Source: a virus (lineage: Duplodnaviria; Caudoviricetes). From it: 40,896 nt of DNA. The position numbers were made by a program, and so were the translations under genes. This document shows positions 198 to 40,753 of this stretch, piece by piece. Position 1 is the stretch's first letter, and every line of letters starts with the position of its first letter. Location of the stretch: the IMG/VR virus record IMGVR_UViG_3300049194_000147, positions 1 to 40,896 of that record; one strand, given 5' to 3'. The notes under the pieces were generated by a model. The model worked only from the letters and a program-made list of their open reading frames with translations, was not told where the DNA came from and made no database searches.

Positions 198-272
198 GGA
201 GGCTGTAGCTCAGTTGGTTAGAGCATCAGATTGTGGTTCTGAGGGTCGAGGGTTCGAGACCCTTCAGCCTCC
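198..272 (+). tRNA. tRNA-His (GTG), prophage integration target
   Basis: Cloverleaf: G-1 plus acceptor GAGGCTG/CAGCCTC, D-arm GCTCAGTTGGTTAGAGC, anticodon arm TCAGA-TTGTGGT-TCTGA, T-loop GGTTCGAG, C discriminator; no encoded CCA at this end. Confidence 0.95.
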
Positions 273-1781
273 CTTAGAGGGTAAGCCCAGCAATGAAACG
301 CTGGGCTTCTCTATTTTAAGAAGTTCAAACTTTTGTAATTCAGCGAGTTTTGGGGCAATGAGTGGTGAGGTGTTAGGGGTTCGATAGGAATTTGGGATGT
401 AATATAGAACCCCGCCAAAAAGGTAGTTTACGAACTTTGCTTTTTTATCTGCATCGAACGTGTGAAATATCTTATCGAAGTTGGTTATGTACTGCAATAC
501 AGTATCAACCTTTTTTAAATAAGCGGTTTTGCTTTCTGAAAAGCTGTTTAACTCAGCCTGCAGGGTTGACTTCCTTACGTTCAATTCATTCATCAGCTGA
601 TTGTAACTTTCAACGGTAATTTTATCGGTTAGCAAAAACCGCTGTTCTGTAAACTTAACCTGCTTATCGATTTGCTGTATTTCTTCGGTTAATATTTTAC
701 TTCTTCCATCACGTTTGGAAAAATGATCTTCCACTTTTAAAATTAACTGTGTACGAAACCACTGTACCTCAGCTTCAGTAAAGGATAAAACAGAAAGCAG
801 CTGATCAAACTTTTCGTGCAATCGCCGGGCTAAGAAATTTTGTTTGTGCTCCTGGCATAAATAGTACCAATAGTTTTTACCATGCCGGCCCTTTGGATTT
901 GAAACCGTAAGCAGTTTACCACACCAGCAACGCAGTGCGCCCTTCAAATACGTTTCTTCATTGGCTTTGTAAGTAGCAGGTTTGCGTTTGCTGTAAAAAC
1001 GTTCCCGGGCTTTATGAAAAGTAAGCTCATCAATAATAGCCTGGTGCAAACCTTTTACAAATTTATCAGTACCTGTTTTTACCGGCAGTTTTAGTAACCC
1101 GGCATAAATGCAATTACAAAGCATGCGTTGTATAACCGCATTGCCGTTTAATGCATAACCCTTTTCGGCAGCATATTTACGGATGGAAACAATTGTACTT
1201 CCATCAATATACATGGCAAACATCTGCTTTACCACATCTGCCTTCAGCTCATCAACCAATAAAATAGCTTTTCCGTTTTCATCCCGGCTGTTGATGTAAC
1301 CAAACGGTGCTTTTGATGATGGCCTTCCATTCATTGCCATGGCTATCTTACTATCCTTACTCCGCTTTCGAATTCTGTGCAGCTCACTTTCGCCAATCAT
1401 CAGTTTAAATGCCCGGCTCATAAACGTCATCGGATCATCAAAATCCGTATCAATAGAATCGTTGGTGCTGAGTACTTTTATTTTATACTTTTCCTGCAGC
1501 TCCTTAATCTTAAACAAAGCCTCTGCAATATTTCGGCTGAAACGATCATAATCAAAAATTATGAGGTACTTCACCAGTTTATTTTCTTTCAAAAACTTTT
1601 CCAGCTTCTTCCAATCGGGCCTGTCGAATGTATACGAGCTGTGCCCATTATCTGTAAACAGCTGCACCAGGTTTAAATTATTACGGGCACAGTAATCCCT
1701 GATCACATTTTCCTGATGATCTAACGAATACTTACTCTGGTCCTTTATCGAAATACGCAGATACCCGGCAGCAAAACTCAT
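264..1781 (-). CDS. Large serine recombinase (prophage integrase)
   Basis: YLRIS catalytic motif, DRFSRN, recombinase domain (APFGY, IYAG), zinc ribbon CWCG...YYLC, coiled coil; 505 aa; stop codon lies inside the tRNA. Confidence 0.95.
   Translation of the reverse strand: MSFAAGYLRISIKDQSKYSLDHQENVIRDYCARNNLNLVQLFTDNGHSSYTFDRPDWKKLEKFLKENKLVKYLIIFDYDRFSRNIAEALFKIKELQEKYKIKVLSTNDSIDTDFDDPMTFMSRAFKLMIGESELHRIRKRSKDSKIAMAMNGRPSSKAPFGYINSRDENGKAILLVDELKADVVKQMFAMYIDGSTIVSIRKYAAEKGYALNGNAVIQRMLCNCIYAGLLKLPVKTGTDKFVKGLHQAIIDELTFHKARERFYSKRKPATYKANEETYLKGALRCWCGKLLTVSNPKGRHGKNYWYYLCQEHKQNFLARRLHEKFDQLLSVLSFTEAEVQWFRTQLILKVEDHFSKRDGRSKILTEEIQQIDKQVKFTEQRFLLTDKITVESYNQLMNELNVRKSTLQAELNSFSESKTAYLKKVDTVLQYITNFDKIFHTFDADKKAKFVNYLFGGVLYYIPNSYRTPNTSPLIAPKLAELQKFELLKIEKPSVSLLGLPSKGG
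268..273 (+). other. Left attachment core (CCTCCC) in tRNA-His 3' end
   Basis: Joining it to 39692-39697 rebuilds CAGCCTC-C-CCA followed by a terminator. Confidence 0.8.
283..318 (+). terminator. Phage-supplied hairpin just after the tRNA (probable replacement terminator)
   Basis: AAGCCCAGC (283-291) / GCTGGGCTT (300-308) 9-bp stem followed by a T-rich tract; overlaps the integrase coding region. Confidence 0.6.
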
Positions 1782-23478: not shown

Positions 23479-23620
23479 TATGTTTGTGATGCAAAACACT
23501 CTCTTCAATGAGACAAAAATTCCATTACAGACTAGTATTACCTAACTGGGCAGGCGAACGGTTGAAAGTACCGCAGCTTTTCTGTTGTCTCAACAGAGTG
23601 TTTTGCAGCGACCTGTCCAT
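23479..23620 (+). promoter_or_regulatory. Promoter (TATGTTTG) plus structured 5' leader
   Basis: -7 consensus at 23479-23486; inverted repeats 23490-23502/23595-23607 and 23509-23516/23585-23592. Confidence 0.55.
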
Positions 23621-23644
23621 TCTTTTCATTTCAAATTGTTTAAA

Positions 23645-23869
23645 ATGCAAAACACAACAAGCGATCAAAAGGCCCAATTAGCGGCCCATGTGCAAGACCT
23701 TTTTCAGCAAACCAGTGTACAGGAAATTGAGCAATGCCTGTGGGATATGTTTAACCGCACAGTAGAAAATGAAGATGCTACTATGCAAGAGGTTAAAGAT
23801 GCAGCGTTTTACTGCCGGTTACTAACAAGGTACCTGCACAGCATGCAGCTGTATGTTACATTACAGTAA
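23645..23869 (+). CDS. Small helical protein (paralog of 24101-24313)
   Basis: LAAHVQDLF...EIEQCLWDM versus LATEVKTFF...EIEQDLYDM. Confidence 0.7.
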   Translation: MQNTTSDQKAQLAAHVQDLFQQTSVQEIEQCLWDMFNRTVENEDATMQEVKDAAFYCRLLTRYLHSMQLYVTLQ

Positions 23870-23904: not shown

Positions 23905-24100
23905 CACATCGCAAATACATTACAAACTGCCCTTGTAAAATTGTATTGCTGTTTAAAAACAGCATGGTTAAACATGCTTATAAGTATAAATACTGATTAT
24001 TATAATAAGTATTTATGTGTATAAATTAACCTAACTAACTGCAACGCATAAACGATAAACTGTAATTAAATTGTAGCCTCACTTTAAACCTATTCTAACA

Positions 24101-24313
24101 ATGAGTAACACTCCAAAACCACAACCTACAGCGTTAGCCACCGAAGTAAAAACGTTTTTCGCTAACAGTACCGCAGCCGAAATTGAGCAGGATCTGTACG
24201 ATATGTTGCAGCTAAGCCTGGAGCACCAGCCCGATGTTCAGCATACCAAAGAAAAGCTGCACACCTACCGGGAGCTATCGCAGTTTTTGCACCGCATCAG
24301 CCAAATGGTTTAA
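24101..24313 (+). CDS. Small helical protein (paralog of 23645-23869)
   Basis: 70 aa, followed by its own terminator. Confidence 0.7.
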   Translation: MSNTPKPQPTALATEVKTFFANSTAAEIEQDLYDMLQLSLEHQPDVQHTKEKLHTYRELSQFLHRISQMV

Positions 24314-24318
24314 TGTAT

Positions 24319-24344
24319 AACCTCCGCACAACGGAGGTTTTTTT
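24319..24344 (+). terminator. Rho-independent terminator
   Basis: AACCTCCG/CGGAGGTT stem plus T tract. Confidence 0.75.
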
Positions 24345-24410
24345 ATAAAATAAACTCCTTAATATTTGCATATATCGTAAACTGTCGTAAATTAGCGTAA
24401 CATTTCGCAA

Positions 24411-24839
24411 ATGCAAAGAGTTGTGTTTTTTATAGCAGTCAGTTTTTGTTTAGTTGTTGAATTAAAAGCCCAGCTGCATGTTTATGCAGGTGCCGGTGCC
24501 ACCAATGGTTTGCCAGGAGCAGAGTTGTGTGTGGGGTACCGGCACGGTAAGGGCGCCATAGGTGCAGGCTTTACTGCTGCTGACGATGCTGCAATGCCTT
24601 TACAGTTGCATATACGGGCACAACTTGTTACACAGTACGGTATAATTGCAGGAGCAGGGCCTGTTTGGCAAGTGTACAGCACCCATGCCACCCAACGTAA
24701 CAGCCTGCAGGCACAACTGTATGCCGCTTACCATTTTTGTTACTACAAACGATCTTCTTTTTACATAAGCACTACCTACACCACCGGCAGCACAATAAGT
24801 GCTCATGTTGGTATGAGTTTGGGTTTGTGGAAAGAGTGA
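24411..24839 (+). CDS. Exported protein, probable small outer-membrane beta-barrel
   Basis: Signal peptide ending LKA-Q (Bacteroidota Q-rule); alternating Gly/aromatic strands (VYAGAG, IGAGF, AHVGMSLGLW). Confidence 0.55.
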   Translation: MQRVVFFIAVSFCLVVELKAQLHVYAGAGATNGLPGAELCVGYRHGKGAIGAGFTAADDAAMPLQLHIRAQLVTQYGIIAGAGPVWQVYSTHATQRNSLQAQLYAAYHFCYYKRSSFYISTTYTTGSTISAHVGMSLGLWKE

Positions 24840-24855
24840 AACAGTTAAACGTTAA

Positions 24856-25068
24856 ATGTTACAGGTTATGAGTAATGAAAAAGTTTATTACATCGAGCAA
24901 TGGGGTAATAAGTTTAATCCTAAGGATGTAAACCATACACTTTATTTTGATACTGCATCATTAATTGATGGCATGGTTTATACCAACTTAAAATCACAAT
25001 TGCAAACGCATGCCTATTTCAGAGTAAAACTGAAACCGCAGCCATCGCCTTCAACCCTTAACTCATAA
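24856..25068 (+). CDS. Hypothetical protein
   Basis: 70 aa; start may be 24868. Confidence 0.55.
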   Translation: MLQVMSNEKVYYIEQWGNKFNPKDVNHTLYFDTASLIDGMVYTNLKSQLQTHAYFRVKLKPQPSPSTLNS

Positions 25069-25083
25069 CCTTTAACCTTTTCT

Positions 25084-25395
25084 ATGATCAGTATTTCTTT
25101 AAAAGACAGCAACGGCAACAGCATGCAGTTAAATGATGTAGTGCTGATTCATTACACCAACCCATCGGTAAAGTACCTGGGCGTATTACAATTTTTTGAA
25201 GAAGAAGCCTGTTTCATTATCAGCGATAACGATGGAGATTACGAATACTGGCACCCCGGCATTTGGAGCAGTATTGAAAAAGTATGTGATGGTGGTTTTG
25301 CTTTTTCACTCGATCATTACTTTGGAAGAAATGAAACTACTACTGCTGCTATGATGAAAGCGGTGGAAGAGGTGAAGGCGGCGTTGTATGTATAA
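25084..25395 (+). CDS. YopX-like protein
   Basis: LKDSNGNSMQLNDVV resembles YopX LKDxNGxEIYEGDIV; its stop TAA lies in the array boundary GTATAAC. Confidence 0.5.
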   Translation: MISISLKDSNGNSMQLNDVVLIHYTNPSVKYLGVLQFFEEEACFIISDNDGDYEYWHPGIWSSIEKVCDGGFAFSLDHYFGRNETTTAAMMKAVEEVKAALYV

Positions 25396-25521
25396 CGTTC
25401 CCACGCTTGGCGAAGGTGGCGATTTACAGCACAAATGCCGATGCGGAGAACGAATGTTGAATATAGCAGTAAATATCGAGCGGAGTACTGCACCGCCACT
25501 TTTGCCAAACGTGTGTTATGC
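25390..25521. repeat. attC-like site A (132 bp)
   Basis: GTATAAC ... GTTATGC cores; arms 25402-25421 / 25494-25513 pair 17/20 plus 2 G.T. Confidence 0.75.
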
Positions 25522-25557
25522 GTTCGGGCTTTTTGGAAACGAATTAAATTTTAAAAT

Positions 25558-26088
25558 ATGAATAGTAAAATAATCAGCTTCGCAATAGAAGCACACAACA
25601 ACACAAACCATTTATACGATGGTAAACCTTATTCGGTGCATTTGTCAATGGTAGCAATGACCGCACAAAAGTATATTGATTGCATACCTGAACAAGCACA
25701 AAGCGATGTATTATCTGCTTGTTGGTTACACGATACAATTGAAGATTGCAGAATGACTTATAATGATATTAAGCAAGTAGCTGGTGAAGCGGTTGCAAAT
25801 ATTGTTTATGCCGTAACCAACGAAAAGGGTAAAAACCGAAAAGAAAGAGCAAATGATGCCTATTACGATGGTATTAGAAAAACAATGTGGGCAAAATATG
25901 TAAAGCTATGTGATAGACTTGCAAATGTTCAATACAGCTACGATAATACTTCAAGAATGTATGGTGTTTATCAAAAAGAGAATGATGCTTTTTTGCAAGC
26001 ATTGTTTCCGAATGAAAGCGAAATGCACCACTACCGAGATATTGTCAATGATTTGAAAATGTTGTTGGGTTACACGGTCGTAGCCTGA
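25558..26088 (+). CDS. HD-domain hydrolase, Mesh1/SpoT small alarmone hydrolase-like (cassette cargo)
   Basis: AH...GKPYSVHL...WLHDTIED...VKLCDRLAN motif set. Confidence 0.8.
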   Translation: MNSKIISFAIEAHNNTNHLYDGKPYSVHLSMVAMTAQKYIDCIPEQAQSDVLSACWLHDTIEDCRMTYNDIKQVAGEAVANIVYAVTNEKGKNRKERANDAYYDGIRKTMWAKYVKLCDRLANVQYSYDNTSRMYGVYQKENDAFLQALFPNESEMHHYRDIVNDLKMLLGYTVVA

Positions 26089-26089
26089 C

Positions 26090-26199
26090 GCATAACGGCC
26101 AGAAATTGCTGTTGTGCGCCCTGTACCGATGGAACATCGGAGTAAAAGGGCAAGCAACAGTTGAGGCAGACGGCGCATTATAGCAATTTACTGTTGGAC
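26090..26199. repeat. attC-like site B (110 bp)
   Basis: GCATAAC ... GTTGGAC cores; arms 26100-26120 / 26172-26193; inner CCGATG-GAA-CATCGG hairpin. Confidence 0.75.
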
Positions 26200-26349
26200 G
26201 CCGTACGGGAGTTGTGTTTAGCCTGCCGAATTTTCTGGCCGTTGGACAGCCATAAGTAAAACAAGGGAGTGTGAAGCATGAACACGGTTGGTTTACGGCT
26301 TTCACCCCGTATGAAGAAAACAAAATTTTTTAATCTTAAAATTATAATC

Positions 26350-26670
26350 ATGGAAAATTTAAACAAAGAAGGTCGCTATATCCTGATAGCATATCGTTAC
26401 GGTCATAAAGACGGACACAGTTATTTAGTTGATTTGTGTAGCGGAATTGATACTGCAACAGAACGTGCAGATGCAGAAGCTATGGATAGAGGTGGAAAAT
26501 ACTCTGTATCCGTTTTCGCTGTCCGTACATACGGAGAAATTGAAGAAGTGTATGAGGCAAAATGCCCTGAACATTATACACAAGGAACTCAATCGTTGCA
26601 TCAAGCGCATGAACAATTAAAGAAAGATATAAAAGAAGGGCTTTCTGCTTTGTCTGTATTATTGTCTTAA
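26350..26670 (+). CDS. Hypothetical protein (cassette cargo, 106 aa)
   Basis: ATG at 26350 after an AT-rich leader; bracketed by inverted repeat 26299-26323 / 26671-26696. Confidence 0.7.
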   Translation: MENLNKEGRYILIAYRYGHKDGHSYLVDLCSGIDTATERADAEAMDRGGKYSVSVFAVRTYGEIEEVYEAKCPEHYTQGTQSLHQAHEQLKKDIKEGLSALSVLLS

Positions 26671-26703
26671 TTGTTTTCTGAATTACGGGGTGAAAGTATG
26701 GCG

Positions 26704-26938
26704 GTCCAACGATCGGGGTGTTTGCGAAGTGGTGTTTTAAAAAATCAATTATTAAACAATTAAAATTTATAAAATGAGCAACGAGAACGATGACGTTAGT
26801 GAAGCTAAGGGATGCCTATTTTACGTATTGGCATTTGCAGTTTTGGTTTTTACATTAAAGTACGGTTGTAATTGATTTTTTAAATAAGCCACGAAAGCAA
26901 GCGACCAACAGCCCCATTTCGTAAACACCATGTAAGGC
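26704..26938. repeat. attC-like site C (235 bp) with a small ORF in its loop
   Basis: GTCCAAC ... GTAAGGC cores; arms 26717-26732 / 26914-26929; inner perfect 16-bp IR 26736-26751 / 26869-26884. Confidence 0.7.
26774..26875 (+). CDS. 33-aa single-TM peptide
   Basis: MSNENDDVSEAKGCLFYVLAFAVLVFTLKYGCN with AT-rich Bacteroidota-type leader. Confidence 0.5.
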   Translation: MSNENDDVSEAKGCLFYVLAFAVLVFTLKYGCN

Positions 26939-27138
26939 GAAGGTTGCCAGCGAAGCTATCACCTTAAACAATCAACACTTACACGGGGGCTGTGGGTGCA
27001 ACCACGATCGTAAGGCAAAATTTAGGGGCTGGGAACGTAGCGAAGCGAAGTGAAAGCACCGTGTGCGGAGGATTATGTGTGTTGGCAAATTTTGCCTTAC
27101 AAGTTGATTAGCGAACCTACTATAAAAATCAATCTATT

Positions 27139-28020
27139 ATGAACAGAGCACAGGAATTAAAGTACAAGTTTATGCGGGAGTTAAAGCTGCGTAATTATGC
27201 AGATAGCAGCATACGTACCTATGCCGATTGCATTATGCAGTACTTTAAGTTTATGAATGGCAAAAAGCCTGCCGATGCCGCTGCTCATATTGAATTGATT
27301 AAAGATTATCTGCTCAGCATTAAAAACCAAAACTACCACAAACAAATGCTTGCAGCCATCCGCAACTTTCACAAGTTTGTATTAAAGCAACCGCTTAGCC
27401 TGGGCGATGTGCCTTACCCACGTGCAACAGATTATTTACCCGAAATACTTAACCTGCAGGAAACAAACAAACTGCTGGCCAGCTACAGCAACATTAAGCA
27501 CCGGGCCATTATTACATTGATGTATGTGTGTGGCTTACGTATTGGCGAAGTGCCAAAAATTAAAATAAGCCATGTAGATGGTGGGCGTGGATTGATCCGT
27601 ATTGCAGGTGCCAAAGGGTTTAAAGATCGGGATGTGCCGGTACCAGCCGATACGTTGCAACTGCTGCGTACTTACTTTACCCAATACCAACCAAAAGAAT
27701 GGCTGTTTGAAGGTCAGCAAAAAGGAGAGCAGTACACCGTACGCAGCATACAGCAATTGTTTTACCAGGGCTGCCGCCGTATAGGCTTACGTAAAAAAGT
27801 AAGGCCGCACGGTTTACGCCACAGCCGGGCTACTCACTTAAAAGAGGCTGGTGTGGATATAAAAGACATTGCCGATTTTTTAGGCCATTACCGCATACAA
27901 ACCACAGAGCTGTATTTAAAACTCAGCAAAAAAACATTGGTGAACCGTATTGCTATGGCAGATGAATTATTGAAACAGATTTTTAAACAGGAAGCAAAAG
28001 AAGCACTTACTTACGCATGA
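27139..28020 (+). CDS. Tyrosine recombinase, integron-integrase-like with N-terminal SAM-like domain, no IntI insertion
   Basis: LRNYADSSIRTY N-domain; GLRIGE (R), KGFKDR (K), HGLRHS (HxxR), LGH...TTELY (H, Y); short spacer WLFEG...YTVRS. Confidence 0.9.
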   Translation: MNRAQELKYKFMRELKLRNYADSSIRTYADCIMQYFKFMNGKKPADAAAHIELIKDYLLSIKNQNYHKQMLAAIRNFHKFVLKQPLSLGDVPYPRATDYLPEILNLQETNKLLASYSNIKHRAIITLMYVCGLRIGEVPKIKISHVDGGRGLIRIAGAKGFKDRDVPVPADTLQLLRTYFTQYQPKEWLFEGQQKGEQYTVRSIQQLFYQGCRRIGLRKKVRPHGLRHSRATHLKEAGVDIKDIADFLGHYRIQTTELYLKLSKKTLVNRIAMADELLKQIFKQEAKEALTYA

Positions 28021-28334
28021 CAGACATCGCCATCATTAACCGTTTATTTGAAACAGCTATTGCCGAAAAGGCTGTGTACCGTAAGCTGGGCATTACGGCC
28101 CGTACTGTTGCCAGTATGCGGTACAATTACAAAAAGCATGGCCGTGTACGTATTGAAAAGCGGCTGTGGGTATTGCAAAAGCTGGGGTACGATATTAATG
28201 CGTACAGCTACACCAAAGCCAACCTGGTAGAGCTGTTAAAGTTTTACAACCGCTGCAGCCAGGCAGCAAGGGATTTAGGGCCGGAGTATGTAGCTGAAAA
28301 GTTTATTGATCAGTTAACCAATAAAAACAAATAG
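28017..28334 (+). CDS. Basic small protein, possible HTH
   Basis: VYRKLGITARTVASMR; ATGA-coupled to the recombinase. Confidence 0.55.
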   Translation: MTDIAIINRLFETAIAEKAVYRKLGITARTVASMRYNYKKHGRVRIEKRLWVLQKLGYDINAYSYTKANLVELLKFYNRCSQAARDLGPEYVAEKFIDQLTNKNK

Positions 28335-28339
28335 TATTT

Positions 28340-28720
28340 ATGGCAAAAACAAAAAAGCAATTGCAGGAAGAGTACAGCAAAGAGTTAAACGAATGGATTA
28401 CAAAGTGTGAAATCTATTCAAGCAATAACGATTTAATTAGAAAAATAAACAGTGAACTTGAAGCACTTGTTTCAGAAAAGAAAACTGAAATTTCAAACCT
28501 TACATCAAAAAATAATTATTTAATAAAGCAGATGAACCAATGGTGTTCAAAACAAATTGCAAGACTTGAAGCTGTAAAAATGCTTTTTTCGGTAATGGAA
28601 AGCGGTGGAACGCATCGGCAGAAAAGACTATTTTATCATCAGGCTTTAATTGTAATCGATTCTGAAATTAAAAACTTGCAGAATGATAAGGTGAGCGAAA
28701 CAGAAGATCTTCCTTTTTAG
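28340..28720 (+). CDS. Coiled-coil hypothetical protein ending in DLPF
   Basis: 126 aa; acidic SSB-type C-terminal tip EDLPF. Confidence 0.6.
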   Translation: MAKTKKQLQEEYSKELNEWITKCEIYSSNNDLIRKINSELEALVSEKKTEISNLTSKNNYLIKQMNQWCSKQIARLEAVKMLFSVMESGGTHRQKRLFYHQALIVIDSEIKNLQNDKVSETEDLPF

Positions 28721-28766
28721 GGTACTACTCCCGACTTTCCGACTCCCGACTACCGGCTTTCCACCT

Positions 28767-28804
28767 ATTGTCCTCCACCCATCCAACAACTCTTTCCACT
28801 TTTA
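28767..28804 (+). promoter_or_regulatory. Putative late promoter copy 3
   Basis: ATTGTCCTCCACC-N17-CACTTTTA before the portal operon. Confidence 0.7.
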
Positions 28805-28836
28805 TACTGTTCACAAACGTTTTATGTTCAGTATAA

Positions 28837-29166
28837 ATGGAGCAAACCATTAACAGGTGGCAGGTAGTGCAGCAAATGGATAGCGGCATGCCCTTCGATC
28901 TTTCGTTTATTACTTGCGATCGCCGCAGGGGTACCGGTGGCGAAATTCGCCGGGTAACCAACTATGTAAAGTACAAAGGCGAAACCATTAGTGCCCGTAC
29001 ACGTAACAGGCAGCTGCAAACAAAGCTCAACAGCCCCGTACGTAACCCCAACCACCTGCAGCATAAAACCGTAAACATTTACAACCCGCACGATAGCCGG
29101 CAGCACCCCTACACGGTGCATTGGCGGTTAATGGTGCTGTTTAACGGAAAAAGAATTGTACAATGA
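28837..29166 (+). CDS. Phage hypothetical protein upstream of portal
   Basis: 109 aa, FDLSFITCD...FNG; ATGA overlap with portal. Confidence 0.7.
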   Translation: MEQTINRWQVVQQMDSGMPFDLSFITCDRRRGTGGEIRRVTNYVKYKGETISARTRNRQLQTKLNSPVRNPNHLQHKTVNIYNPHDSRQHPYTVHWRLMVLFNGKRIVQ

Positions 29167-39757: not shown

Positions 39758-40753
39758 TTATTGATGTTGTTGCGATCGTTCGTACAAAAGGCCGGGAGTT
39801 ATGCCGTACTCTTTTTTAAAGGCCTTGGTAAAATTTGAAACATCGCTAAAGCCAATGCGTAAACCGGCTTCCTTTGGCGAAATACCTGTTGCTAAAAAGT
39901 CCTTTGCTTTTTCCAGCCTGTTTTTATTATAATATTCATACAACGCATAGCCATACACCTGTTTAAAACGTTGTTTCAGTTTAGTACCGCACATTTGTGC
40001 AATGACCGCCAGTTTATTAATAGATGGGAAACGGTCTAAATCTTCTTTTAATAATTCTTCTATGGCTTTCAGTTTTGTCAGGTCTTCTTCGGGAATAACG
40101 GCATTTGTAAGTATGGCTGTTTGTCCGTTTAAATAGGTTTTAAAGAAATAATCTAACAGCGTAACAATGTTGGTTTTAACCTGGAAGCGTTGTTTCTGGC
40201 AATTAAAATCGGCTGTAAAAATTTTCTGTAGTGTATTATTTATTTCTTCATCAATGATCATCTTATCAATTAACTGCACACCCTGGTTGGTAAGTTGATT
40301 GATATTCTTTTTTGCTTCATCGTTCAGATGAACAGAAAGCCATTGCGGCGTAAGATATATACCTAATCGTTTAATACGAGAACCAGCAGAGTAATTCACC
40401 TGCAATTCGGTATTCGTTGGCGATAAAAAAATATTATTCTTTTGAATTGTTTCTTCATTTCGAAACGAATCCTTTTTATTCTTTACATGAATAAAATTTT
40501 TAACCTGTGTTTGATTAAAGAAGATCAGTAATCCTGCTTGGTTATTACTTAGTCTGTGTAAGGTAAAATCTGTATTCAGCTCGGCATCCAGGATTCCGAA
40601 CGAGAAGGTTCGGTCGATACTGTCGGCAAAACAATAACCCCTGCCAATTGTCTCCGGAAAGAAAAGTAGGTTGTTCGTAGCTTTACTTCCTGTAAGAGAC
40701 CCAATTTCCTGTAACCAGGTTTTGAAGTTTCGTTGTTTGTATTGTAAATACAT
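39758..40753 (-). CDS. Host AraC-family transcriptional regulator
   Basis: C-terminal KLKQRFKQVYG...RLEKAK...IGFSDVSNFTKAFKKEYGITP. Confidence 0.92.
   Translation of the reverse strand: MYLQYKQRNFKTWLQEIGSLTGSKATNNLLFFPETIGRGYCFADSIDRTFSFGILDAELNTDFTLHRLSNNQAGLLIFFNQTQVKNFIHVKNKKDSFRNEETIQKNNIFLSPTNTELQVNYSAGSRIKRLGIYLTPQWLSVHLNDEAKKNINQLTNQGVQLIDKMIIDEEINNTLQKIFTADFNCQKQRFQVKTNIVTLLDYFFKTYLNGQTAILTNAVIPEEDLTKLKAIEELLKEDLDRFPSINKLAVIAQMCGTKLKQRFKQVYGYALYEYYNKNRLEKAKDFLATGISPKEAGLRIGFSDVSNFTKAFKKEYGITPGLLYERSQQHQ

What the first reader, a model, noticed from the sequence alone, without database searches (positions are those of the whole stretch)
26201..27064. Shared scaffold around the two splint sequences; one cassette body is entirely non-coding
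Seen: both 23-mers are preceded by ACGGGRGYTGTG (26205-26216 and 26983-26994, 10/12 identical) and followed by AGGG...GAAGC...TGAA..CAC(G/C)GT. Each is enclosed by a short stem (GCCGTA/TACGGC; ACACGG/CCGTGT). In cassette 26097-26710 this ~90-bp module interrupts an otherwise continuous long inverted repeat (26193-26206 plus 26299-26323 versus 26671-26710). In 26932-27100 it is nearly the whole cassette body. Inference: a conserved structured ncRNA/ssDNA module with a programmable loop.
Basis: partly seen in the sequence, partly recalled or inferred. Interest (0 to 1): 0.75.

Follow-up and report, generated by a model that had tools for sequence, protein, structure and literature searches.

The report
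Cassettes that splint their own ends
Two swappable DNA cassettes in this phage each carry a 23-letter mirror copy of the join their own two ends would make as a circle, the copy changes in step with those ends in related cassettes, and it likely acts as a built-in DNA guide that refolds the single strand so a recombinase can cut and paste the cassette.

Summary
The two modules belong to two different cassette families in an integron-like array beside a tyrosine recombinase lacking the integron I2 insertion. What is conserved is base pairing. Each 23-mer is the reverse complement of its own cassette's circle junction: 22/23 in both window copies, 243/253 Watson-Crick positions over 11 cassettes, with compensatory changes (cognate pairing best of 720 permutations). 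In the second family the 'shared' ACGGG motif is a second antisense arm against the cassette's own attC-like hairpin, and it also co-varies. DNA folding predicts that the module replaces the normal hairpin with a fold holding both ends in register. The gene-less cassette sits at many different array sites, 9 in one bacterial genome. The neighbouring ordinary cassette shows a precise empty site in reads; the splinted ones showed no circle or empty site. Best reading: a cis ssDNA guide for the cassette's own recombination (0.45); main rival: a brake on excision (0.33). An ncRNA is unsupported. This scan noted similar cassettes in two other phage genomes; nine literature searches found no description.

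The parts
25390..25521 (+). attC-like hairpin site upstream of the ordinary (TAAC-core) HD-domain cassette
   Evidence: Folds as a long stem on the + strand; the empty-site joint maps into its core
25397..26096 (+). Ordinary cassette without a splint; ORF 25558-26088 is an HD-domain phosphohydrolase; serves as internal control
   Evidence: Pfam HD_4; precise 700-nt skip in 3 of 4 runs
26097..26710 (+). Splinted cassette M1: attC-like hairpin 26097-26192, natural core 26193-26199, module, gene of unknown function (26350-26670), inverted-repeat end
   Evidence: Homologous chassis with other cargo genes in L358 and L018
26200..26299 (+). M1 module (family 1 scaffold) interrupting the terminal inverted repeat
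26232..26254 (+). Splint 1: reverse complement of the M1 circle junction, 22/23
   Evidence: compensatory changes in L358 and L018
26711..27100 (+). Splinted cassette M2 with non-coding body and atypical core (GTAAGGC); 33-aa ORF 26774-26875 in its hairpin loop
   Evidence: Same element between different neighbours in L005, L103, L101, L358, L018 and at 9 sites of G721
26890..26900 (+). Conserved segment predicted to re-pair with the left arm (26721-26731) in the splinted fold
   Evidence: Conserved in the alignment; paired in the predicted folds of the window and G721 circles; inferred
26908..26915 (+). Right flank of the M2 hairpin; target of the second antisense arm
   Evidence: 8-bp perfect complement to 26986-26993
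26981..27000 (+).
   Evidence: Cognate pairing best of 720 permutations; 0-3 of 300 shuffles as stable in each of 6 family members
27001..27023 (+). Splint 2: reverse complement of the M2 circle junction, 22/23
   Evidence: 5' half 41/42 paired over 6 members, best of 720 permutations
27094..27115 (+). attI-like end of the array: AC core, 5-nt spacer, GATTAGCGAA
   Evidence: Same spacing before the integrase in the window and 7 other distinct loci
27139..28020 (+). Tyrosine recombinase, 293 aa, without the IntI I2 insertion; the likely but unproven catalyst
   Evidence: Pfam PF00589 + SAM_4; R134, K159, H224, R227, H250 and Y259 invariant in 56 homologues; about 42 aa shorter than IntI4 in the I2 region; folds like XerA and IntI4

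Best explanation
Each of the two cassettes carries an internal reverse-complement copy of its own circle junction that co-varies with its ends, and this module is predicted to refold the single-stranded recombining strand so that both ends are held in register on the copy, likely serving as a built-in DNA guide on which a tyrosine recombinase excises and re-inserts that cassette. Shown: array anatomy, cassette boundaries after an AC dinucleotide, splint complementarity and covariation, the second antisense arm in the M2 family, and many insertion sites of the gene-less element. Predicted: two alternative folds, A (ordinary attC-like hairpin) and B (splinted), with B favoured. Inferred: in the circle, B makes the junction a perfect duplex, like a double-stranded attI-type site. 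In the array, B together with the next cassette's hairpin gives a four-way junction (previous core to own left end; splint; own end to next left arm; next right arm and core) that the recombinase would resolve by one exchange at the two AC positions, with no need for the neighbour's core to match the cassette's atypical core. Also inferred: that the adjacent I2-less recombinase, or its host counterpart, is the enzyme, and that this helps a gene-less cassette spread selfishly.
For: Splint and junction are contiguous and in exact register at the AC core in all 11 curated cassettes, 243/253 positions Watson-Crick. Cognate pairing beats all 100,000 random reassignments for 10 cassettes and is the best of 720 within the M2 family. 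L101, L103, L358 (M2) and G721 were found by searches that did not include the variable 5' half. Only 3 of 199 independently defined cassettes score 21-22/24, the next scores 16, and none of 3,958 swapped junctions reaches 20. Folding puts the splint on both ends in 11 of 11 circles (P 0.82-1.0) and in 9 of 11 linear contexts; B is 13-28 kcal/mol below the splint-unpaired fold in 10 of 10 circles tested. The element nevertheless moves: 10 pieces at 9 sites in G721, while one control cassette body is single-copy there. M1's left site took part in the gain or loss of the HD cassette, so it is not dead. In G721, three truncated copies break within 10 nt before the splint centre, and one deletion removes just the domain enclosed by the left-end/splint helix, as slippage across fold B would (inferred). 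Splints occur in 0 of 174 TAAC-core and 6 of 23 atypical-core cassettes. The recombinase lacks the domain that IntI uses for extrahelical bases (PMC4792948 passages).
Against: No circle junction or empty site for either splinted cassette in 8 runs (contigs only; 4 at low depth), while the ordinary neighbour showed one in 3 of the 4 deeper runs. Fold A (natural arms and core) is also conserved and forms in 9 of 10 circles when the splint is held unpaired, so B does not replace it. 17 of 23 atypical-core cassettes have no splint, including a GTAAGGC gene cassette in L406, so the splint is not needed for an atypical core; the 6 splinted cases come from only two families. M2 lies directly at the attI-like end in the window and L018, as ordinary attC x attI insertion would place it. 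The second antisense arm is not significant in the M1 family (29-47 of 300 shuffles as stable). The folds are equilibrium predictions, and no recombinase-DNA link was tested.
Confidence: 0.45

Rival explanations
1. Brake or lock: the module is an anti-attC. It invades the ordinary hairpin from its unpaired parts and sequesters both cassette ends, so the cassette inserts through transient fold A but is rarely excised and accumulates.
For: With the module free, predicted pairing of the ordinary L-box stem falls (window M1 and M2: 0.00 against 0.67; lower in 10 of 10, by only 0.01 in L101 and about 0.1 in L015b). Low folding probability of attC lowers excision in known integrons (PMC5371416 passages). 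No loss of the splinted cassettes was seen, while the ordinary neighbour was lost. Fold A is conserved. An earlier scan note (e1-10011729) read similar leaders this way; that is a lead, not support.
Against: Fold B is even more dominant in the circle, which would block re-insertion, yet the element occupies 9 sites in one genome. A brake does not need the two halves contiguous and in exact register in 11 of 11. M1's left site did recombine with the HD cassette.
Confidence: 0.33
2. Relic kept alike by copying: the splint is an inverted duplication of the circle junction from an aberrant event, homogenised with the ends by template switching or conversion between inverted repeats, with no selected function.
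For: Splint pairs are almost all Watson-Crick (2 G-T of 253) whereas natural arms have 36 G-T of 235 (both counts are partly shaped by the detector and the aligner). Hairpin-rich arrays show slippage products.
Against: At least four different scaffolds carry a splint in register. A separate antisense arm co-varies with a third target. One splint/end mismatch is kept at the same position in two M1 members while its neighbours change in step.
Confidence: 0.12
3. Non-coding RNA or promoter cassette: the body is transcribed and acts as a guide RNA (seekRNA or bridge-RNA-like), or it supplies a promoter as gene-less Vibrio cassettes do.
For: The body is non-coding and structured, and the + strand is the sense strand of the surrounding phage genes. 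Gene-less cassettes with promoters are known (bioRxiv 10.1101/2023.11.21.568050, search listing only).
Against: No Rfam family; no RNA run holds more than 0.12 of the words. Sigma-70-like sites are at chance level (6 against 5.2), and the Bacteroidota TAnnTTTG motif (consensus recalled) is absent from 8 of 9 chassis. The splint matches one strand of its own junction only. In G721 the same strand is antisense to the array genes. No IS110-type transposase was seen among the window proteins scanned.
Confidence: 0.06

Closest known systems
Integron gene cassettes, attC/attI sites and IntI (PMC5027507, PMC4792948, PMC5371416; passages read); phage-borne integrons and CALINs (PMC9892861; abstract and section 3.4 read)
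   Same: Array of cassettes bounded by imperfect hairpins with complementary cores, unpaired spacer and variable loop; crossover at the AAC-type core; attI-like site next to a tyrosine recombinase gene; precise cassette loss seen in reads.
   Different: The recombinase lacks the I2 insertion; the phage genes lie opposite to the standard cassette orientation; cores can be GTA-, GTTG- or GTTC-type; and some cassettes carry an internal, co-varying complement of their own junction and hairpin flank, which none of the passages read describes.
IS200/IS605 (IS608) single-strand transposition with DNA guide sequences (PMC5027513; passages read)
   Same: ssDNA element excised as a circle; a sequence inside the element base-pairs with the cleavage site.
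   Different: There the guide is 4 nt and the enzyme an HUH Y1 transposase. Here it is a 23-nt complement spanning both ends, beside a tyrosine recombinase.
IS110/IS1111 seekRNA (PMC11187229; passages read) and bridge RNA (recalled)
   Same: A non-coding region with programmable segments that co-vary with the recombination site.
   Different: Those are RNAs bound by a DEDD recombinase and match both strands of a target. Here no RNA or DEDD enzyme was found, and the guide matches one strand of the element's own junction in cis.
Gene-less cassettes of Vibrionaceae superintegrons (bioRxiv 10.1101/2023.11.21.568050; search listing only)
   Same: Non-coding cassette body in large arrays.
   Different: Those are described as promoter carriers; no promoter signal above chance was found here.

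Membership tests
Integron (IntI/attI/attC) | Tyrosine recombinase with an intact catalytic set next to the array | tested here: met
   Pfam hits; catalytic residues invariant in 56 homologues; fold matches XerA and IntI4
Integron (IntI/attI/attC) | IntI-specific I2 insertion | tested here: not met
   Query 171-204 corresponds to IntI4 172-247; TIGR02249 124 bits against a cut-off of 265; the G721 array integrase aligns to the window protein without an insertion there
Integron (IntI/attI/attC) | attC-type hairpins with complementary cores, unpaired spacer and variable loop | tested here: met
   174 of 197 cassettes end in TAAC
Integron (IntI/attI/attC) | Consensus core GTTRRRY/RYYYAAC in the splinted cassettes | tested here: not met
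   The M2 core is GTAAGGC and other splinted cores are GTAG- or GTTC-type; only M1 (GTTGGAC) fits
Integron (IntI/attI/attC) | attI site beside the integrase gene | tested here: inconclusive
   A conserved site with fixed spacing in 8 loci; activity untested
Integron (IntI/attI/attC) | Precise cassette excision or insertion at the core | tested here: met
   Empty site for the HD cassette in 3 of 4 runs (24-nt side, runs may be this DNA's source); the same M2 element between different neighbours
Integron (IntI/attI/attC) | Integrase-dependent recombination of the folded single strand | not testable with these tools
   Needs an assay
IS110/IS1111 seekRNA or bridge RNA | DEDD recombinase encoded by the element | tested here: not met
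   Cassette ORFs and 20 other window proteins scanned gave no such family
IS110/IS1111 seekRNA or bridge RNA | Expressed guide RNA matching both strands of a target | tested here: inconclusive
   No RNA run holds the region; the splint matches one strand of its own junction
IS200/IS605 | HUH Y1 transposase and 4-5-nt guide at subterminal hairpins | tested here: not met
   No Y1 family hit among the proteins scanned; the guide is 23 nt
Known Rfam RNA family | Match above gathering score | tested here: not met
   3 sub-threshold matches in 24000-29000, none in the modules

The most novel reading that the evidence does not exclude
A natural DNA-guided tyrosine-recombinase system: the cassette encodes in cis a reprogrammable single-stranded DNA guide that pre-assembles the Holliday junction for its own excision and turns its circle into a duplex site, so that junction specificity is set by base pairing and could be rewritten by changing 23 letters.
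Probability: 0.3. Interest if true: 0.9.

Novelty: new variant of a known kind. Interest (0 to 1): 0.72.

Why it matters
Integron cassettes are treated as passive cargo whose mobility is set by one hairpin. Here some cassettes carry their own base-pairing device that refolds that hairpin and is kept in step with it through repeated sequence change. Whether it is a guide or a brake, it is cassette-encoded control of site-specific recombination that I could not find described, and a simple splint-mutation and compensation assay can tell the two apart. If it is a guide, it offers base-pair programming for a tyrosine recombinase. It also bears on how Bacteroidota arrays recombine with enzymes that lack the integron I2 domain.

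Tried and rejected
An unconstrained splint detector was swamped by chance hits and was replaced by one requiring the AC/GT core (30 hits against 6.5 per shuffle) and a natural hairpin (11 rows in 354 sequences, 0 in one shuffle; 10 places, of which L039 was dropped as a long repeat in an unrelated GC-rich genome). A relaxed version (37 rows against 8 in a shuffle) added the two L358 cassettes; the other new rows were dropped by eye as chance-level. Single shared scaffold: rejected. Closing stem as a general feature: not supported. Rfam: nothing. blastn of the modules against cultured phages: only short AT-rich matches for M2 and none for M1. M1 chassis in 401 genomes of the G001 order: 0, and the search also missed the known diverged copy in G001, so it is insensitive. 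M2 in 60 relatives of G721: 0. Cultured phages Leef_1 and Ingeline_1 have related integrases but no splint was detected. Five further loci from the M1 pattern were chance matches without a splint. Constrained fold energies failed for several states and were replaced. Runs X7, X8, X11 and X13 were too fragmented to show joints. No covariance model was built: 3-6 sequences per family, and the alignment misplaced the L018 splint.

Full report
Context. The window is a whole 40,896-nt virus record with primase and tape-measure hits. Close relatives of its recombinase lie in Ferruginibacter and Sediminibacterium bins, so a Bacteroidota host is inferred. Between 25390 and 27115 lies a row of imperfect hairpins with complementary cores, ending at a tyrosine recombinase gene (27139-28020). 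The enzyme keeps its catalytic residues in 56 aligned homologues and folds like XerA and IntI4, but is about 42 residues shorter than IntI4 where the integron I2 insertion lies and scores far below the IntI cut-off. A site with fixed spacing (AC core, 5 nt, GATTAGCGAA) precedes the gene in the window and 7 other distinct loci; I read it as attI-like. The unit of movement runs from just after one AC core to the next. In 3 of 4 deeper DNA runs a joint skips exactly the HD-domain cassette (25391 to 26092, 6-nt overlap; the short side is 24 nt and these runs may be the source of the window). The same M2 element is found between different neighbours in several phages.

Observation. The module is half, not nearly all, of the 26932-27100 body. 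The 10/12 match between the two modules is reached by 71 of 5000 shuffles and is not kept in homologues.

Homologues. Loci were gathered by integrase, by DNA pattern and by blastn in genomes. A detector requiring the core and a natural hairpin gave 11 rows in 354 sequences and 0 in a shuffle; a relaxed one gave 37 against 8. From these and I curated 11 cassettes: six M2-type (window, L005, L101, L358, L018, G721), three M1-type (window, L358, L018) and two others (L015). L103 repeats the L005 element at another site. M1-type chassis carry different cargo genes. With the splint masked, similarity is strong within families and near background between M1 and M2; L015b shows some similarity to M1 and L015a to L358 M2. 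Splints are rare: 3 of 199 cassettes defined without reference to the splint scored 21-22/24, the next scored 16, and none of 3,958 swapped junctions reached 20. In a second count 6 of 197 had one: 0 of 174 with a TAAC core and 6 of 23 with another core (the six come from two families, so the Fisher p of 1.3e-6 overstates independence).

Covariation. Over the 11 cassettes 243 of 253 splint-junction positions are Watson-Crick, with no gap at the core. In M2, positions 2-7 of the left end vary and the splint follows (41 of 42 paired, best of 720 permutations). Four of these elements were found by searches that did not use that half. M1 members change in both halves in step (65 of 69, best of 6).

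Folding. With DNA parameters the splint pairs both ends in 11 of 11 circles and 9 of 11 linear contexts, and the ordinary hairpin stem is mostly displaced. Holding the module unpaired restores it (window 0.00 to 0.67; little change for L101 and L015b), and the splinted circle is 13-28 kcal/mol more stable in 10 of 10. So the cassette has two mutually exclusive folds, both conserved. The opposite strand is predicted to pair similarly but less stably. GNA triloops occur on the + strand of 8 of 9 chassis; their stability in DNA is recalled, not tested here.

Mobility. G721 holds 10 pieces of the M2 element at 9 sites: five full length (two share flanks), one cut by a contig end, three truncated within 10 nt before the splint centre and continuing into another cassette's core, and one lacking the domain between the left end and the splint. 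One copy lies outside any array. A control cassette body is single-copy there, while the common attC repeat has at least 40 copies (one control only). No circle or empty site of the window's splinted cassettes appeared in 8 runs (contigs only, four fragmentary).

Mechanism. In fold B the splint and the next cassette's right arm and core complete a nested four-way junction whose two crossing strands carry the AC cores; one exchange releases the cassette as a circle with a perfectly paired junction, and the reverse reaction inserts it (inferred). This explains the exact register, the independence from the neighbour's core, and spread despite B dominating the circle. I give it 0.45. A brake (0.33) explains the lowered hairpin probability, the conservation of fold A and the absence of observed loss, and agrees with the link between folding probability and excision in PMC5371416 (passages); it explains register and re-insertion less well. 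A relic kept by copying (0.12) and an RNA or promoter role (0.06) are weaker. Against my reading: 17 of 23 atypical-core cassettes have no splint, and M2 sits at the attI-like end in two arrays, as ordinary insertion would place it.

Comparison. It works like an integron array (attC anatomy and crossover core as in PMC5027507, passages; phage attC sites in PMC9892861, abstract and section 3.4) but is not filed as one, since I2 is absent (PMC4792948, passages). The nearest guide analogues are the 4-nt DNA guide of IS608 (PMC5027513, passages) and seekRNA (PMC11187229, passages); neither enzyme is present. PMC8618304 and PMC8876359 (passages) added only background. Nine full-text searches showed no description of junction-complementary cassette modules in listings or in the passages read; the library lacks most subscription papers, and no supplements were read. 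Unchecked notes of this scan report similar cassettes in two other phage genomes.

Verdict. A real and selected base-pairing device, not a single conserved ncRNA scaffold: a new variant of integron-like cassettes, interest 0.72. If the guide model holds it would be a DNA-programmed tyrosine-recombinase reaction (probability 0.3, interest 0.9).

Noticed in passing
window 25397-26096: The HD-domain cassette is polymorphic: a precise empty site co-exists with the filled site in runs X2, X3 and X5 (contig depths 16.7/22.1, 12.5/16, 4.6/9.2).
   Followed up: yes
window 26774-26875; L358 and L018 M2 cassettes: The loop of the M2 hairpin is a variable slot: a 33-aa hydrophobic ORF here, other short ORF-like inserts in L358 and L018, almost nothing in L005 and L101. 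It may be how new genes enter cassettes.
   Followed up: partly
window 25084-26670 versus G721 arrays (L444, L448): Phage cassette genes read along the AC-bearing strand, while chromosomal array genes in G721 read against it, the standard integron orientation.
   Followed up: partly
G721 (L448 6242-7450 and arrays on C1, C3, C4): A chromosomal superintegron-like system with at least 40 near-identical attC-like repeats and a 403-aa recombinase that also lacks the I2 insertion. No M2 copy was found in the integrase-linked array on C3 or the large C1 array.
   Followed up: partly
L445 (G721:C3, around 431007-431142): A minimal M2 derivative in which the left 10 nt sit directly beside the splint, forming a 7-bp hairpin, with both natural arms deleted.
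   Followed up: partly
L354 2501-2542 (minus strand): Only the 3' end of an M2 element remains at the head of an array, abutting a helicase gene.
   Followed up: no
L001, L005, L101, L103, L018: Many array cassettes appear from their reading frames to encode DNA methyltransferases (judged by eye, not scanned), as reported for phage cassettes in PMC9892861.
   Followed up: no
window 264-1781 (-) and 39758-40753: A large serine recombinase at one end and an AraC-family regulator at the other suggest a prophage with host flank, leaving the tyrosine recombinase free for the array.
   Followed up: no
window 23585-23869 and 24101-24313: Two short ORFs with similar sequence (79% over 29 nt), each followed by a terminator-like hairpin.
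   Followed up: no
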